DNA of 64,000 nucleotides from Escherichia coli 042 (GTDB taxonomy: Bacteria; Pseudomonadota; Gammaproteobacteria; Enterobacterales; Enterobacteriaceae), in assembly GCF_000027125.1 (NCBI RefSeq), contig NC_017626.1; one strand, 5' to 3'. Below, in pieces: positions 18,718-63,510 of this stretch; position 1 is the first letter of the stretch; every line of letters begins with the position of its first letter. The position numbers and the translations under genes were made by a program. The notes beneath the pieces were generated by a model. That model saw only the letters and a program-made list of their open reading frames with translations. It was not told the origin of the DNA and did not search any database.

Positions 18718-19263
18718 TTACAGAAGAGGCTTAAGTTGATTAAGGAATTCCGCAAGATTTGAGGCTAAATGCGCCCGTTTACGTGTTCCCAGCGTCTCTT
18801 TGCACACTTCACCGGAGAGATTACACACCGAGATGACCTCTAACTCTTCTTCCAGCGTCGCGATAAATAGCGTGGGCGGCAGTTTTAGCCTTTTCTGAGT
18901 CACCAGATGACCAATCAGATTTTCCTGCACCCGACGGAAGTCGTCTTCACTCCAGGTTTGCAGCAATGTCAGTTTAATATCGCCAAACTGCGCGTGCATA
19001 TCCCCGGCAAACTGAGTCGTATAAAAGGTATGAATTGTGGGTTGTATCACAATATCAAAAGCGCGTTCAACCGCGTTTACATTTTGTTCCCCGGTAAACG
19101 GCTGGGGTTGCCAGTATACGGCGTCTTCGGTGGTTGAAATAATGCACGGTGAAGGAACGCCGTACAGTTCCTCACTCAACGGCCAGCTTTTATGCTCTTC
19201 ATGCCACGCATCGCAGTAGCGTGCAGTAAAATCTTTCAGGGCTTGTGCGGTCAAATCGTCCAC
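18718..19263 (-). CDS. syd: SecY-interacting protein Syd
   Basis: 181-aa ORF; synteny next to csrB. Confidence 0.85.
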
Positions 19264-27072: not shown

Positions 27073-27720
27073 TTACTCTTCAATCCGTAACCCGTAGGTT
27101 TTGAATTTCTCCAGCACTACGGCAATCTCTTCATCGCTCAGCACTGGCACCGGGTCCGTAATCGCCAGGGTCGTCAGGTAAAGTTGCGCCAGCACTTCAA
27201 CTTCATGCGCCAGCCATAACGCTTTTTCCAGATTCACCTCACAAGCGATAAGCCCATGATGTTGTAACAAAGTTGCCTTACGATTTTTGAGAGCCAGCGC
27301 AACATGTTCAGAAAGTTCGCGTGTTCCAAAGGTCGCATAAGGCGCGCAAGGAATAGAATTACCGCCAGCCGCCGCAATCATGTAGTGAATAGCGGGGATC
27401 GGTCGGTTAAGAATGGAAACTGCTGTGCAATGAACGGCATGATTGTGAACAACCGCGTTGGCATCCGGTCTGCTTTGATAGGCCGCCATATGGAAACGCC
27501 ATTCGCTTGAGGGGAGTTTTCCTTCCTCATGTTTACCGTTGCCATCAATAAAGACAATATGCGACTCCGTCAGTTTTTCATATGGAATACCTGTAGGCGT
27601 AATCAGCATCCCATCCTGATAACGTACACTGACGTTACCCGCTGTCCCCTGGTTCAGTCCCAGGCGGGTCATTTCCAGGCAAGTGTCAATAATCTGACGA
27701 GCAAGTTTATTTCGTTCCAT
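27073..27720 (-). CDS. fucA: L-fuculose-1-phosphate aldolase
   Basis: 215-aa class II aldolase ORF. Confidence 0.93.
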   Translation of the reverse strand: MERNKLARQIIDTCLEMTRLGLNQGTAGNVSVRYQDGMLITPTGIPYEKLTESHIVFIDGNGKHEEGKLPSSEWRFHMAAYQSRPDANAVVHNHAVHCTAVSILNRPIPAIHYMIAAAGGNSIPCAPYATFGTRELSEHVALALKNRKATLLQHHGLIACEVNLEKALWLAHEVEVLAQLYLTTLAITDPVPVLSDEEIAVVLEKFKTYGLRIEE

Positions 27721-28266
27721 TAGCTACCTCTCTCTGATTCAAAACAGGGCAATAATGTTGTTCCTTTCACACTATTGAATTAGCCGTTTAATTACCCACC
27801 ATCTTCTTCCTGATTAACAAGAAAGAAATTCACAAGCTTATATTTTGTGACCTGGTTCAACTAATCACAGTAAATAACTGCAACTTCTCTTTTTATAATC
27901 CCATTAAAAATGACCGCTCTTAAAAATATTTATCAAAACGGTCATTTTTCCATTCCCTCTCGCCAGAAATGCCCGTTTTCGGCACAAACAATTAATACGG
28001 TCATCGGGTTTGTGTTTTTTATGATTTATTTTCTGAAACGGGCATGAAATTTCGATTATTAAAGTGATGGTAGTCACATAAAGTCACCTCCCAGCTAATA
28101 AGTGTGACCGCCGTCATATTACAGAGCGTTTTTTATTTGAAAATGAATCCATGAGTTCATTTCTGACAGGCAAATATTCACTGATATGAAGCCCGAACTC
28201 GCTGGTTTTGCACTTTTGAAAACATAACCGATTACGTGCTTAAGCTTCTGAACCTAAGAGGATGCT
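27721..28266. promoter_or_regulatory. Divergent fucAO / fucPIKUR control region with repeated inverted motifs and two CRP-like sites
   Basis: AAAATGACCG-N22-CGGTCATTTT at 27907-27948; related ATGCCCG/CGGGCAT and ACGGTCAT motifs at 27967-28050; aGTGA-N6-TCACA at 28063-28078 and TGTGA-N6-TCATA at 28103-28118. Confidence 0.6.
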
Positions 28267-29583
28267 ATGGGAAACACATCAATACAAACGCAGAGTTACC
28301 GTGCGGTAGATAAAGATGCAGGGCAAAGCAGAAGTTACATTATTCCATTCGCGCTGCTGTGCTCACTGTTTTTTCTTTGGGCGGTAGCCAATAACCTTAA
28401 CGACATTTTATTACCTCAATTCCAGCAGGCTTTTACGCTGACAAATTTCCAGGCTGGCCTGATCCAATCGGCCTTTTACTTTGGTTATTTCATTATCCCA
28501 ATCCCTGCCGGGATATTGATGAAAAAACTCAGTTATAAAGCAGGGATTATTACCGGATTATTTTTATATGCCTTGGGCGCTGCATTATTCTGGCCCGCTG
28601 CAGAAATAATGAACTACACCTTATTTTTAGTTGGCCTATTTATTATTGCAGCCGGATTAGGTTGTCTGGAAACTGCCGCAAACCCTTTTGTTACGGTATT
28701 AGGGCCGGAAAGCAGTGGTCACTTCCGCTTAAATCTTGCGCAAACATTTAACTCATTTGGCGCAATTATCGCGGTTGTCTTTGGGCAAAGTCTTATTTTG
28801 TCTAACGTGCCACATCAATCGCAAGACGTTCTCGATAAAATGTCTCCAGAGCAATTGAGTGCGTATAAACACAGCCTGGTATTATCGGTACAGACACCTT
28901 ATATGATCATCGTGGCTATCGTGTTACTGGTCGCCCTGCTGATCATGCTGACGAAATTCCCGGCATTGCAGAGTGATAATCACAGTGACGCCAAACAAGG
29001 ATCGTTCTCCGCATCGCTTTCTCGTCTGGCGCGTATTCGTCACTGGCGCTGGGCGGTATTAGCGCAATTCTGCTATGTCGGCGCACAAACGGCCTGCTGG
29101 AGCTATTTGATTCGCTACGCTGTAGAAGAAATTCCAGGTATGACTGCAGGCTTTGCCGCTAACTATTTAACCGGAACCATGGTGTGCTTCTTTATTGGTC
29201 GTTTCACCGGTACCTGGCTCATCAGTCGCTTCGCACCACACAAAGTCCTGGCCGCCTACGCATTAATCGCTATGGCACTGTGCCTGATCTCAGCCTTCGC
29301 TGGCGGTCATGTGGGCTTAATAGCCCTGACTTTATGCAGTGCCTTTATGTCGATTCAGTACCCAACAATCTTCTCGCTGGGCATTAAAAATCTCGGCCAG
29401 GACACCAAATACGGTTCGTCCTTCATCGTTATGACCATTATTGGCGGCGGTATTGTCACTCCGGTCATGGGGTTTGTCAGTGACGCAGCGGGCAACATCC
29501 CCACTGCCGAACTGATCCCGGCACTCTGCTTCGCAGTCATCTTTATCTTTGCCCGTTTCCGTTCTCAAACGGCAACTAACTGA
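28267..29583 (+). CDS. fucP: L-fucose:H+ symporter
   Basis: 438-aa MFS ORF. Confidence 0.93.
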   Translation: MGNTSIQTQSYRAVDKDAGQSRSYIIPFALLCSLFFLWAVANNLNDILLPQFQQAFTLTNFQAGLIQSAFYFGYFIIPIPAGILMKKLSYKAGIITGLFLYALGAALFWPAAEIMNYTLFLVGLFIIAAGLGCLETAANPFVTVLGPESSGHFRLNLAQTFNSFGAIIAVVFGQSLILSNVPHQSQDVLDKMSPEQLSAYKHSLVLSVQTPYMIIVAIVLLVALLIMLTKFPALQSDNHSDAKQGSFSASLSRLARIRHWRWAVLAQFCYVGAQTACWSYLIRYAVEEIPGMTAGFAANYLTGTMVCFFIGRFTGTWLISRFAPHKVLAAYALIAMALCLISAFAGGHVGLIALTLCSAFMSIQYPTIFSLGIKNLGQDTKYGSSFIVMTIIGGGIVTPVMGFVSDAAGNIPTAELIPALCFAVIFIFARFRSQTATN

Positions 29584-32919: not shown

Positions 32920-33342
32920 ATGCTGAAAACAATTTCGCCGTTAATTTCTCCCGAACTATTGAAAGTGCTGGCAGAGATGGGACATGGAGATGAAATTATT
33001 TTTTCCGATGCTCACTTTCCCGCCCATTCGATGGGACCGCAGGTGATCCGCGCTGATGGCCTGTTGGTGAGCGACTTGCTCCAGGCGATTATCCCGTTAT
33101 TTGAACTGGACAGTTATGCACCGCCGCTGGTGATGATGGCGGCGGTAGAAGGTGACACTCTCGATCCTGAAGTAGAACGACGTTACCGTAATGCGCTTTC
33201 ACTACAAGCCCCGTGTCCTGACATCATCCGCATCAATCGTTTTGCGTTTTATGAACGGGCACAAAAAGCCTTTGCGATCGTTATCACAGGCGAACGAGCG
33301 AAGTACGGGAATATTCTTTTAAAAAAAGGGGTAACACCGTAA
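32920..33342 (+). CDS. fucU: L-fucose mutarotase
   Basis: 140-aa RbsD/FucU-family ORF. Confidence 0.9.
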
Positions 33343-33399: not shown

Positions 33400-34131
33400 A
33401 TGAAAGCGGCACGCCAGCAAGCGATAGTCGACCTGCTGCTGAACCATACCAGCCTGACCACGGAAGCTCTCTCTGAACAGCTAAAGGTCAGTAAAGAAAC
33501 CATTCGTCGCGATCTCAATGAATTACAGACGCAGGGTAAAATTCTGCGCAATCATGGGCGCGCTAAATATATCCACCGTCAAAATCAAGACAGTGGCGAT
33601 CCCTTTCACATCCGGCTGAAAAGCCATTATGCGCATAAAGCAGATATCGCGCGCGAGGCGCTCGCGTGGATTGAAGAAGGGATGGTAATAGCCTTAGACG
33701 CAAGTTCAACCTGCTGGTATCTGGCACGCCAGTTGCCTGACATCAACATCCAGGTCTTCACCAATAGCCATCCGATTTGCCATGAACTCGGTAAACGCGA
33801 ACGCATTCAACTAATCAGTTCCGGCGGCACACTTGAGCGCAAATATGGCTGTTACGTCAATCCCTCGCTGATTTCCCAACTTAAATCGCTGGAAATCGAT
33901 CTGTTTATTTTTTCTTGTGAAGGGATCGATAGCAGCGGCGCACTGTGGGACTCCAATGCCATCAACGCTGATTACAAATCAATGCTATTAAAACGCGCCG
34001 CGCAATCGTTGTTATTGATTGATAAAAGTAAATTTAATCGTTCAGGGGAAGCCCGCATCGGGCATCTGGATGAGGTAACGCACATTATTTCTGATGAGCG
34101 CCAGGTTGCAACTTCTTTGGTAACAGCCTGA
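33400..34131 (+). CDS. fucR: DeoR-type activator of the fucose regulon
   Basis: 243 aa from ATG at 33400 (MKAARQQAIVDLL), HTH plus sugar-binding domain. Confidence 0.9.
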   Translation: MKAARQQAIVDLLLNHTSLTTEALSEQLKVSKETIRRDLNELQTQGKILRNHGRAKYIHRQNQDSGDPFHIRLKSHYAHKADIAREALAWIEEGMVIALDASSTCWYLARQLPDINIQVFTNSHPICHELGKRERIQLISSGGTLERKYGCYVNPSLISQLKSLEIDLFIFSCEGIDSSGALWDSNAINADYKSMLLKRAAQSLLLIDKSKFNRSGEARIGHLDEVTHIISDERQVATSLVTA

Positions 34132-63149: not shown

Positions 63150-63510
63150 GAAGGGGTGGATAGCCGTTTTTATTCACCTTTTCTGTGGATAGAGTTGTGA
63201 AGAACTACGGAATTACTACGGGAAAACCCAGAGCATTCTGAATAAGCCCGATATAGATATTTTAAAATATTCATTATCAGTCAATGCATTACATATAATT
63301 TGAGTAATAAAAAAGAGTAATTCGTGACCCAGGTCACACCTCTCATTTACGGGTTGGCGAAAGATCAACCAATGCGGTATTTATCCACAGAATGTGCCAC
63401 TAAGTTAAGCACTGAACCACTAAAAACTGGAGTTTCGTCGCACGTCAAGGCTGTAAATGGAAACAGTAGTGGAGGTTTTTCACAGTTATCCCAGCTTTCT
63501 GTGGATAACA
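63150..63510. promoter_or_regulatory. DnaA-box cluster consistent with DARS2 (DnaA-reactivating sequence 2) in the rppH-mutH intergenic region; boundaries approximate
   Basis: Three closely spaced DnaA-box-like 9-mers at 63155-63192 (GGTGGATAG, TTATTCACC, TGTGGATAG) and two perfect consensus boxes at 63381-63389 (TTATCCACA) and 63500-63508 (TGTGGATAA) in 684 bp of AT-rich noncoding DNA. Confidence 0.55.

What the first reader, a model, noticed from the sequence alone, without database searches (positions are those of the whole stretch)
27907..28118. Repeated inverted-motif family and CRP-like sites in the fuc divergent control region
Between fucA and fucP there is a 10-bp perfect inverted repeat AAAATGACCG-N22-CGGTCATTTT (27907-27948), followed by related copies (AAATGCCCGTTTT at 27967-27979, ACGGTCATCG at 27996-28006, AAACGGGCATG at 28036-28046) and two CRP-like sites (28063-28078 and 28103-28118). 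The iterated ATGACCG/CGGTCAT motif is what would be expected of multiple operator half-sites for the DeoR-type activator FucR encoded in the same operon.
Basis: partly seen in the sequence, partly recalled or inferred. Interest (0 to 1): 0.3.

Follow-up and report, generated by a model that had tools for sequence, protein, structure and literature searches.

The report
Known FucR boxes and CRP sites
The repeated CGGTCAT-type motifs and the two CRP-like sites between fucA and fucP in this E. coli window are real and strongly conserved, and they match the published binding sites of the fucose activator FucR and the cAMP receptor protein, so the finding is correct but already known.

Summary
The window is E. 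coli. Five CGGKCAT cores lie within 136 bp, against 0.06 expected. De novo k-mer counting over 20 genera recovers AACGGKCA as the top non-AT motif. In a 16-genus alignment the boxes and CRP sites are conserved islands (0.86 against 0.55 identity).

The motif equals the published FucR DAP-seq consensus. Two boxes are OFucR3 (27909-27923) and OFucR2 (27968-27982), whose mutation cut fucose induction of PfucAO by more than 50-fold and by about 30% (Zhang et al. 2024). The two CRP-like sites are the published OCrp1 and OCrp0 of the fucPIK promoter.

Three details go beyond the papers I could read:
- The best-scoring box, the right arm of the inverted repeat (27932-27946), is given no sequence or name there.
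- The boxes alternate in orientation and form tail-to-tail pairs with a rigid 28-bp spacing, plus a conserved cryptic sixth box (28010-28018).
- Only the spacer between the second and third boxes varies in length (20-53 bp).

In passing: a CRP-like site inside fucU, upstream of fucR, shows the strongest synonymous-site constraint in that gene.

The parts
27753..27774 (-). OCrp3, a published CRP site in the fucA 5'UTR (centre +19.5 from the PfucAO start)
   Evidence: The reverse complement equals tagTGTGAaaggaacaACAtta of Zhang 2024. Sequence read.
27783..27783 (-). [quoted passage not shown]
   Evidence: Position 27783 is G on the plus strand, so C on the fucA strand.
27843..27864 (-). OCrp2, a published essential CRP site for PfucAO (centre -70.5)
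   Evidence: The reverse complement equals ttagtTGAaccaggTCACAaaa. TGTGA..TCA is invariant in 16 genera.
27909..27923 (-).
   Evidence: The reverse complement equals TTAAGAGCGGTCATT, whose mutation cut fucose induction more than 50-fold. PWM score 13.4 bits. Conserved as ATGNCCG in 14 of 16 genera; Symbiopectobacterium has ACGCCCG and Kosakonia GTGACTG.
27932..27946 (+). FucR box S2, the right arm of the inverted repeat (ATCAAAACGGTCATT). It is the best match to the motif and has no sequence or name in the papers read
   Evidence: PWM score 19.4 bits, the matrix maximum. The box is conserved in all 16 genera: eight of its columns are invariant, one has 15 of 16, and the K column is T or G. It lies 28-29 bp from S1 in 33 of 47 loci.
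27968..27982 (-). FucR box S3, the published OFucR2 (CGGGCAT here, CGGTCAT in K-12)
   Evidence: The reverse complement is CCGAAAACGGGCATT. The K-12 form was mutated with about 30% loss of induction. The K-12 difference is shown. PWM score 19.2 bits.
27991..28005 (+). FucR box S4 (ATTAATACGGTCATC), probably one of the 'putative operators OR0/OR1' of fucPIKUR
   Evidence: PWM score 13.4 bits. It lies exactly 28 bp from S3 in 42 of 47 loci. The core is invariant in 16 genera.
28010..28018 (-). Cryptic box S4' (TTGTGTTTT here; consensus cTGTGGnTTT). It is conserved but non-canonical, 13 bp right of S4 and 28 bp left of S5
   Evidence: Mean identity 0.81 across 16 genera, similar to the CRP sites. 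In Photorhabdus the same position holds a canonical ATGACCGAA. Its assignment to FucR is inferred.
28032..28046 (+). FucR box S5 (TCTGAAACGGGCATG), 29 bp upstream of the centre of OCrp1
   Evidence: PWM score 14.4 bits. Mean identity 0.94 in 16 genera. S4-S5 is 40-42 bp and S5-OCrp1 is 29-30 bp.
28060..28081 (.). OCrp1, the distal CRP site of the fucPIKUR promoter (core 28063-28078; about -81.5 if the start is at 28152)
   Evidence: One mismatch to the consensus. GTGA..TCACA is invariant in 16 genera. Named; no sequence is printed for it there, so the assignment is by position.
28100..28121 (.). OCrp0, the proximal CRP site of the fucPIKUR promoter (core 28103-28118; about -41.5)
   Evidence: The reverse complement equals taaTaTGAcggcggTCACActt. 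Conserved in 16 genera. It lies 39-40 bp from OCrp1 in 47 of 47 loci.
28139..28152 (+). Inferred fucP -10 (GAAAAT, 28139-28144) and start (T at 28152)
   Evidence: Inference only. The published start is 'a T'. T28152 would put OCrp0 at -41.5. TTGAAAAT occurs in 13 of 20 genera.
33400..34131 (+). fucR, the DeoR-type regulator presumed to bind the boxes
   Evidence: Pfam HTH_DeoR 6.6e-23 and DeoRC 1.6e-45. RefSeq annotation 'L-fucose operon activator'.

Best explanation
The region is the shared control region of the divergent fucAO and fucPIKUR operons.

The box. The repeated motif is the asymmetric recognition box (about 10 bp, AAACGG[T/G]CAT) of FucR. FucR is the fuculose-1-phosphate-activated DeoR-type activator encoded at the end of the same operon.

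The array. Five canonical boxes and one conserved degenerate box alternate in orientation (< > < > < >). They form three tail-to-tail pairs whose cores are a fixed 28 bp apart.

Two modules.
- Pair S1/S2 sits 59-60 bp upstream of CRP site OCrp2 and drives fucose induction of PfucAO.
- Boxes S3/S4 and S4'/S5 sit 29 bp upstream of the tandem CRP sites OCrp1 and OCrp0 and serve PfucPIKUR.

At both promoters CRP is the promoter-proximal activator and FucR acts from further upstream. FucR most likely stabilises CRP or RNA polymerase binding, or reshapes the AT-rich DNA.

Shown: motif identity, clustering, conservation, fixed spacing, and (from the literature) the functional need for S1, S3, OCrp2 and OCrp0.

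Inferred: FucR contact at S2, S4, S4' and S5; the 28-bp pair as the binding unit; the division into two modules; and the way FucR helps CRP.
For: Motif and clustering
- Five CGGKCAT cores lie in 136 bp, against 0.06 expected.
- The five PWM scores (13.4-19.4 bits) are at or above the 99th percentile of shuffles, 13.0 bits.
- Unbiased k-mer counting in 20 genus-representative fucA-fucP intergenic regions gives AACGGTCA 36 times against 0.33 in shuffles. The logo is AAA-CGG-K-CA-T.

Match to the literature
- The FucR consensus and the mutational data for OFucR3 (S1, more than 50-fold loss) and OFucR2 (S3, about 30% loss) were seen only under fucose induction.
- The minimal fully inducible PfucAO fragment is -270..-1, which is window 27721-27990. 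It contains S1-S3 but not S4 or S5.
- OCrp0 is identical to the published sequence and was shown to be essential for the IS5 fusion promoter.
- Mutation of OCrp2 lowered activity 14- to 350-fold.

Conservation and spacing
- In 16 genera the feature columns average 0.86 identity and the rest 0.55.
- S1-S2 is 28-29 bp, S3-S4 is 28 bp (42 of 47 loci), S4-S5 is 40-42 bp, S5-OCrp1 is 29-30 bp and OCrp1-OCrp0 is 39-40 bp. S2-S3 ranges from 20 to 53 bp.
- '<>' neighbours at exactly 28 bp were counted 67 times in 47 loci.

Association with fucR
- The full array occurs in the loci that also carry fucR. That includes Edwardsiella, which has a different transporter.
- FucR has HTH_DeoR and DeoRC domains.
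Against: - No FucR footprint, EMSA or ChIP result for this region was accessible. Binding at each box is therefore inferred from a DAP-seq consensus quoted second-hand and from reporter mutagenesis of two boxes.
- S2, S4, S4' and S5 have not been mutated individually in the papers read.
- S4' does not score with the PWM in E. coli. It could be the site of another factor.
- Core centres 28 bp apart (box centres about 26 bp) put the paired boxes on roughly opposite faces of the helix. That is awkward for a simple symmetric dimer.
- The 47 loci are phylogenetically related, so the counts overstate the number of independent observations.
- The fucP start, and hence the -41.5/-81.5 geometry, is inferred.
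- The 'negative control' loci are imperfect, because fucR may lie beyond the 9 kb fetched.
Confidence: 0.9

Rival explanations
1. The boxes are independent single FucR sites. The 28-bp pairing and the alternation of orientation are by-products of shared descent, not a binding unit. The S1/S2 inverted repeat has no meaning beyond holding two sites.
For: - The published consensus is an asymmetric 15-mer, and the two sites tested were treated as independent.
- S1 is degenerate or undetected in about a third of loci.
- All loci descend from one ancestral region, so fixed spacing could simply be inherited.
Against: - Spacer sequences have diverged (0.41-0.67 identity) while the spacer lengths S1-S2, S3-S4 and S4-S5 stay fixed. 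The neighbouring S2-S3 spacer changes freely from 20 to 53 bp, so indels are tolerated there and not elsewhere.
- In Photorhabdus the cryptic partner S4' is canonical at the predicted position.
Confidence: 0.35
2. The inverted repeat acts through nucleic-acid structure (a DNA cruciform, an RNA hairpin or a terminator) rather than as protein-binding boxes.
For: The 56-nt stretch 27900-27955 folds as a DNA hairpin at -9.6 kcal/mol, z = -4.9. The region is AT-rich, and the literature describes it as prone to superhelical destabilisation.
Against: - It lies upstream of both transcription starts, so it is not transcribed.
- The scan found no terminator-like site, and Rfam gave no match at E up to 1.
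- Across 16 genera the variable position of S1 and that of S2 are complementary in only 5, so complementarity is not under selection. Each arm keeps the box consensus instead.
Confidence: 0.02
3. The motif is recognised by a regulator other than FucR, or it is a chance feature of AT-rich intergenic DNA.
For: No direct FucR footprint is available. Other proteins have been proposed to bind this intergenic region, for example SrsR at 28201-28211.
Against: - Clustering P is about 1e-9.
- The motif was derived from FucR DAP-seq, and the mutational effects appear only with fucose.
- The array travels with fucR across genera.
- The SrsR box lies in the fucP 5'UTR, outside the array, and its role was not confirmed.
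Confidence: 0.03

Closest known systems
The published E. coli K-12 fucPIKUR/fucAO control region (Zhang et al. 2024, PMC11011485; Zhang et al. 2025, PMC11894529; FucR motif from Baumgart et al. 2021)
   Same: It is the same locus, 97% identical (15 differences in 546 bp). OFucR3, OCrp0, OCrp2 and OCrp3 are letter-identical. OFucR2 differs only at the permitted T/G position.
   Different: - The papers name two FucR sites with sequences and two further 'putative operators' without sequences.
- They do not mention an inverted repeat or palindrome.
- Not found in the papers read: box S2 as the best-scoring site, the cryptic S4', the 28-bp pair rule, and the single variable spacer.
- This strain has CCAG where K-12 has the IS5 target CTAG.
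CRP-dependent promoters with tandem CRP sites and a second, pathway-specific activator ('class III' in Busby & Ebright 1999, as summarised)
   Same: Two CRP sites lie 40 bp apart next to the promoter, and a sugar-specific regulator is needed in addition.
   Different: Here the specific activator binds upstream of CRP (about -110 to -190). In the AraC, RhaS and MelR systems it binds promoter-proximally (from my own knowledge, not tested here).
Multi-operator regions of other DeoR-family regulators, such as GlpR at the divergent glpTQ/glpACB region and DeoR at deoCABD (from my own knowledge; the family is described)
   Same: The same protein architecture (HTH_DeoR plus DeoRC), a sugar-phosphate effector, several operators in one control region, and interplay with CRP.
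   Different: Those proteins are repressors whose short palindromic or tandem operators overlap the promoters. FucR is an activator, and its boxes are asymmetric, widely spaced (28 bp) and at least 110 bp upstream of both starts.
The malEp/malKp divergent region with repeated asymmetric MalT boxes and CRP sites (from my own knowledge)
   Same: A divergent sugar regulon controlled by an array of asymmetric activator boxes interspersed with CRP sites, forming one higher-order complex.
   Different: MalT is unrelated to the DeoR family. In the mal region the CRP sites lie between the activator boxes, not promoter-proximal to them.

Membership tests
FucR (DeoR-type) operator box, as defined by the DAP-seq consensus quoted in Zhang 2024 | Match to [GA][CT][CG][AC][AG][ATC][AT]CGG[TG]CA[TA][TCG], with CGG and CA invariant | tested here: met
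   Five boxes carry CGG[TG]CAT. PWM scores are 13.4-19.4 bits. S4' does not match.
FucR (DeoR-type) operator box, as defined by the DAP-seq consensus quoted in Zhang 2024 | Located in the control region of fuc regulon operons and found together with fucR in other genomes | tested here: met
   The boxes lie between fucA and fucP. The array is present in 46 other loci with fucR and in three Edwardsiella loci.
FucR (DeoR-type) operator box, as defined by the DAP-seq consensus quoted in Zhang 2024 | Mutation of the box abolishes FucR/fucose-dependent activation | not testable with these tools
   Published for S1 (OFucR3) and S3 (OFucR2) in K-12. Not done for S2, S4, S4' or S5 in the papers read.
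FucR (DeoR-type) operator box, as defined by the DAP-seq consensus quoted in Zhang 2024 | Direct protection or binding by purified FucR at the box | not testable with these tools
   No footprint paper is held.
CRP (cAMP receptor protein) binding site | Two-fold symmetric TGTGA-N6-TCACA core | tested here: met
   28063-28078 and 28103-28118 each have one mismatch. There are 5 such sites in 64 kb against 1.6 expected.
CRP (cAMP receptor protein) binding site | Conservation in orthologous promoters | tested here: met
   The half-sites are invariant in 16 genera. The two sites are 39-40 bp apart in 47 of 47 loci.
CRP (cAMP receptor protein) binding site | Centre at a class I or class II position relative to the start (-41.5, -61.5, -71.5, -82.5 ...) | tested here: inconclusive
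   -41.5 and -81.5 follow only if the fucP start is T28152. That is inferred from 'the TSS is a T' and a GAAAAT -10. OCrp2 is at -70.5 from the published PfucAO start.
CRP (cAMP receptor protein) binding site | Experimental dependence on CRP | not testable with these tools
   Published: mutation of OCrp0 abolishes the IS5 fusion promoter. OCrp0 and OCrp1 are stated to be important for fucPIK.
Classical DeoR-family repressor operator (a short palindrome overlapping the promoter) | A palindrome with adjacent half-sites overlapping the -10/-35, acting by occlusion | tested here: not met
   The boxes lie 110-190 bp upstream of both starts and the half-sites are 28 bp apart. FucR activates. Only S4/S4' in Photorhabdus resembles a tight palindrome.
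Structured RNA, intrinsic terminator or repeated mobile element | An Rfam match, a stem plus T-run, covarying arms, or multiple genomic copies | tested here: not met
   No Rfam match. No terminator-like site. The arms do not covary. There is one copy per genome in 5024 E. coli genomes.

The most novel reading that the evidence does not exclude
FucR does not use single 15-bp sites. Its operator is an ordered array of six alternately oriented boxes, built from three tail-to-tail pairs with a rigid 28-bp core spacing.
- The array includes a top-scoring box (S2) that the papers read do not name, and a conserved degenerate box (S4').
- It is split by one length-variable hinge (S2-S3) into a fucAO module and a fucPIKUR module.
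- Such wide, out-of-phase half-site spacing would imply an extended or DNA-wrapping oligomer of a DeoR-type activator that works by loading CRP.
- That binding mode has not been described for this family in anything I could read.
Probability: 0.45. Interest if true: 0.35.

Novelty: already known. Interest (0 to 1): 0.15.

Why it matters
As written, the finding re-derives published E. coli biology from sequence alone, which is useful mainly as a positive control for the scan. The comparative analysis adds a testable refinement. It says which boxes are likely to matter for fucPIKUR (S4, S4', S5, none mutated in the papers read). It says that S2 should be as important as the essential S1. It also says that spacing within pairs, not between modules, is the constrained quantity. 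This could guide the design of fucose biosensors and explain how a member of a repressor family works as an activator from more than 100 bp upstream of the promoter.

Tried and rejected
- Hairpin, cruciform or RNA reading of the inverted repeat. The DNA fold has z = -4.9, but there is no covariation between the arms in 16 genera, no Rfam hit, no terminator-like site, and the repeat lies upstream of both starts. Rejected.
- Sigma-70 consensus scan of 27650-28350. It found nothing. This is uninformative, as expected for activator-dependent promoters.
- A hidden short-palindrome partner 13 bp from S1 and from S2, by analogy with S4/S4'. Weak matches exist in E. coli only and are not conserved in alignment A2. 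Rejected.
- S4' as half of a CRP site. It gives about 6 of 10 matches in E. coli and fewer elsewhere (read). Rejected.
- The CGGTCAC inside OCrp0 (7.3 bits) as a further FucR box. It is not conserved outside the CRP half-site. Rejected.
- The FucR-like AACGGGCAC at 33254-33262 near fucR. It shows no constraint beyond codon needs. Rejected.
- fucA-paralogue loci without fucP as negative controls. They have 0-4 scattered boxes and no full array. They are not clean controls, because three show a fucR fragment at the locus edge and L060 has one 28-bp pair.
- Literature. Podolny 1999, Zhang 2010 and Baumgart 2021 are not held, so the FucR consensus and the fucPIK CRP work are cited second-hand.
- phmmer of FucR against PDB sequences found nothing at E up to 1e-5, so no structural template for the binding mode was obtained.

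Full report
**1. Where we are.** The window is Escherichia coli. The 546 bp between the two genes match 5024 of 5426 complete E. coli genomes once each, at best 99.8% identity. The flanking genes are annotated in RefSeq as fucO-fucA on the minus strand and fucP-fucI-fucK-fucU-fucR on the plus strand. The fucR product has the HTH_DeoR and DeoRC domains. Against K-12 MG1655 the intergenic region has 15 differences in 546 columns. Ten of them lie in one short stretch, 27950-27972.

**2. The observation.** All the listed elements are present.
- The inverted repeat is 11 bp perfect (27906-27916 / 27939-27949). It sits inside a 22+22-nt palindrome that is 82% complementary.
- One listed copy is off by one base: ACGGTCATCG starts at 27997.
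- An inverted repeat of this length occurs in 1.2% of shuffles, so on its own it is only mildly unusual.
- The motif family is not. CGGKCAT occurs 5 times within 136 bp, against 0.06 per shuffled intergenic region. No shuffled 64-kb window puts more than 3 copies in any 150 bp. The Poisson P is 1.5e-9.
- The two CRP-like sites each have one mismatch to TGTGA-N6-TCACA. The window holds 5 such sites against 1.6 expected.

**3. Independent motif discovery.** With FucA as query I fetched 80 loci from Enterobacterales genomes. Forty-six keep the divergent fucA/fucP arrangement together with fucR.
- Counting k-mers in 20 genus-representative intergenic regions, with no prior motif, gives AACGGTCA 36 times against 0.33 in shuffles. 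It is the top k-mer that is not simple AT-rich sequence.
- The logo built on the core is AAA-CGG-(T/G)-CA-T.
- A position weight matrix from these sites scores five places in the window at 13.4-19.4 bits. The 99th percentile of shuffles is 13.0 bits, and the next real candidate scores 7.3.

**4. Phylogenetic footprint.** I aligned the stretch from the fucA-side CRP site to the fucP-proximal CRP site in 16 genera, from E. coli to Yersinia and Hafnia. It is 290-304 bp long in all of them.
- The conserved islands are the five boxes, three CRP sites and one further element.
- Feature columns average 0.86 identity and the remaining columns 0.55.
- The further element, cTGTGGnTTT (TTGTGTTTT at 28010-28018 here), lies 13 bp to the right of box S4 and 28 bp to the left of box S5.
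- In Photorhabdus that position holds a canonical inverted box, giving TTCGGTCAT-cttt-ATGACCGAA.
- I therefore read it as a degenerate sixth box, S4'. This is an inference.

**5. Architecture.** The boxes alternate in orientation: S1 <, S2 >, S3 <, S4 >, S4' <, S5 >. Spacings of core centres in 47 loci:

| Interval | Spacing (bp) |
|---|---|
| OCrp2-S1 | 59-60 |
| S1-S2 | 28-29 |
| S2-S3 | 20-53 |
| S3-S4 | 28 (42 loci), 29 (1 locus) |
| S4-S5 | 40-42 |
| S5-OCrp1 | 29-30 |
| OCrp1-OCrp0 | 39-40 |

- '<>' neighbours exactly 28 bp apart were counted 67 times.
- The spacers have diverged in sequence (0.41-0.67 identity) while keeping their length. Only the S2-S3 spacer varies in length, and it also carries most of the polymorphism within E. 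coli.
- So the region looks like two rigid modules joined by a hinge: OCrp2-S1-S2 on the fucA side, and S3-S4-S4'-S5-OCrp1-OCrp0 on the fucP side.
- The loci are related, so these counts are not independent events. The contrast between fixed and free spacers within the same sequences is the informative part.

**6. What the literature already says.**
- Zhang et al. 2024 (PMC11011485) quote the FucR DAP-seq consensus of Baumgart et al. 2021, with CGG and CA as the most conserved positions. They name two sites.
- OFucR3, TTAAGAGCGGTCATT, is the reverse complement of window 27909-27923, which is S1. Mutating it lowered fucose-induced PfucAO activity more than 50-fold.
- OFucR2, CCGAAAACGGTCATT, is the reverse complement of 27968-27982, which is S3, apart from the T/G position. 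Mutating it lowered activity by about 30%. Neither mutation mattered without fucose.
- The PfucAO start is 63 nt upstream of the fucA ATG, at 27783. This puts S1, S2 and S3 at -130.5, -158.5 and -189.5.
- OCrp2 (27843-27864) lies at -70.5 and OCrp3 (27753-27774) in the 5'UTR.
- The minimal fully inducible fragment, -270..-1, is window 27721-27990. It contains S1-S3 but not S4 or S5, which fits the two-module view.
- Zhang et al. 2025 (PMC11894529) give OCrp0 as taaTaTGAcggcggTCACActt, the reverse complement of 28100-28121. They state that OCrp0 and OCrp1 serve fucPIKUR and that IS5 inserts between them. [quoted passage not shown]
- Neither paper mentions an inverted repeat or palindrome.
- A 2017 paper still called these regulatory sequences 'complex, but poorly-described'.
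- I found no FucR footprint. Podolny 1999, Zhang 2010 and Baumgart 2021 are not held.

**7. Mechanism.**
- Most likely, FucR charged with fuculose-1-phosphate occupies the box array and co-activates both divergent promoters with CRP.
- CRP is promoter-proximal at both promoters. On the fucA side OCrp2 is at -70.5. On the fucP side OCrp0 and OCrp1 would be at about -41.5 and -81.5 if the start is T28152.
- That start is inferred from the statement that the start is a T, a GAAAAT -10 at 28139-28144, and conservation of TTGAAAAT.
- FucR therefore acts from more than 100 bp upstream. That fits the published suggestion that it helps CRP bind rather than contacting RNA polymerase directly.
- The pair with 28-bp spacing as the binding unit is my inference. 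It is supported by the fixed spacing and by the canonical S4' in Photorhabdus.
- It is weakened by the fact that such spacing puts the two boxes on roughly opposite faces of the helix.

**8. Rivals.**
- A structural reading (hairpin or cruciform). The arms fold with z = -4.9. However, the variable position of S1 and that of S2 are complementary in only 5 of 16 genera, the repeat is upstream of both starts, and neither Rfam nor the terminator scan finds anything.
- Another regulator or chance is excluded by the statistics, the fucose-specific mutant phenotypes and the co-occurrence with fucR. The proposed SrsR box (28201-28211) lies outside the array, and its role was not confirmed.
- Whether the boxes act singly or as pairs remains open.

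**9. Verdict.** The feature is already known: a published FucR motif, two validated FucR sites and four named CRP sites. It ranks low for surprise. The modest additions are box S2, box S4', the 28-bp rule and the hinge. They are predictions to be tested by footprinting and spacing mutants.

**10. In passing.**
- The CRP-like site TGCGATCGTTATCACA (33273-33288) lies inside the 3' end of fucU, about 120 bp before the fucR ATG.
- Over 13 genera, third-codon-position identity averages 0.65 for fucU. It reaches its gene-wide maximum, 0.95, over codons 118-123 (33271-33288), exactly on this site.
- A second peak of 0.90 falls at 33310-33327, where a -10 for a class II CRP promoter would lie.
- This suggests an internal CRP-dependent promoter for fucR. 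The two fuc papers read do not mention one.

Noticed in passing
window 33273-33288 (inside fucU, 32920-33342), with 33310-33327: The CRP-like site TGCGATCGTTATCACA lies about 120 bp upstream of the fucR ATG. It coincides with the strongest synonymous-site conservation in fucU: third-position identity 0.95 against a gene mean of 0.65 in 13 genera. A second peak (0.90) covers AATATTCTTTTAAAAAAA, where a -10 and start of a class II CRP promoter would fall. This is possibly an internal CRP-dependent promoter for fucR. The two fuc papers read do not mention one.
   Followed up: partly
window 28091-28094: K-12 has the IS5 target CTAG here (-374..-371 from the fucA ATG). This is the single insertion site that activates fucAO for growth on propanediol. 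This strain has CCAG (TCCCAGCTAA against TTCTAGCTAA), so that adaptive IS5 route may be altered. A neighbouring CTAA remains.
   Followed up: partly
window 28010-28018: A conserved non-canonical element cTGTGGnTTT (TTGTGTTTT here) lies between FucR boxes S4 and S5. It is as conserved as the CRP sites across 16 genera and is replaced by a canonical inverted FucR box in Photorhabdus. I read it as a cryptic sixth box, but it could be the site of another factor.
   Followed up: partly
window 27950-27972: Ten of the 15 differences from K-12 in the 546-bp intergenic region cluster in the spacer between boxes S2 and S3. This is the only spacer whose length also varies between genera (20-53 bp). One of the ten changes box S3 from CGGTCAT to CGGGCAT, which the consensus allows.
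   Followed up: yes
L026, L033-L040, L044-L046, L048, L050, L052-L054, L056-L065, L067-L069, L072 (fucA at about 9001 in most): Many Enterobacterales carry a fucA homologue (82-88% identity) in a different context: no FucP-type permease next to it, and fucI 5-7 kb away where it lies within the fetched DNA. These loci lack the FucR box array. L060 (Serratia sp. DD3) has a single 28-bp '<>' pair at -187/-159 from fucA, with no fucR within 9 kb.
   Followed up: partly
window 28201-28211: gCtGgTTTTGC in the fucP 5'UTR is the published SrsR (YgfI) box of this intergenic region. The 2024 paper found no effect of SrsR on fucAO.
   Followed up: no
window 19036-19051 and 63323-63338: Two further sites with one mismatch to the CRP core (TGTGGGTTGTATCACA and CGTGACCCAGGTCACA). 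Their context was not examined.
   Followed up: no
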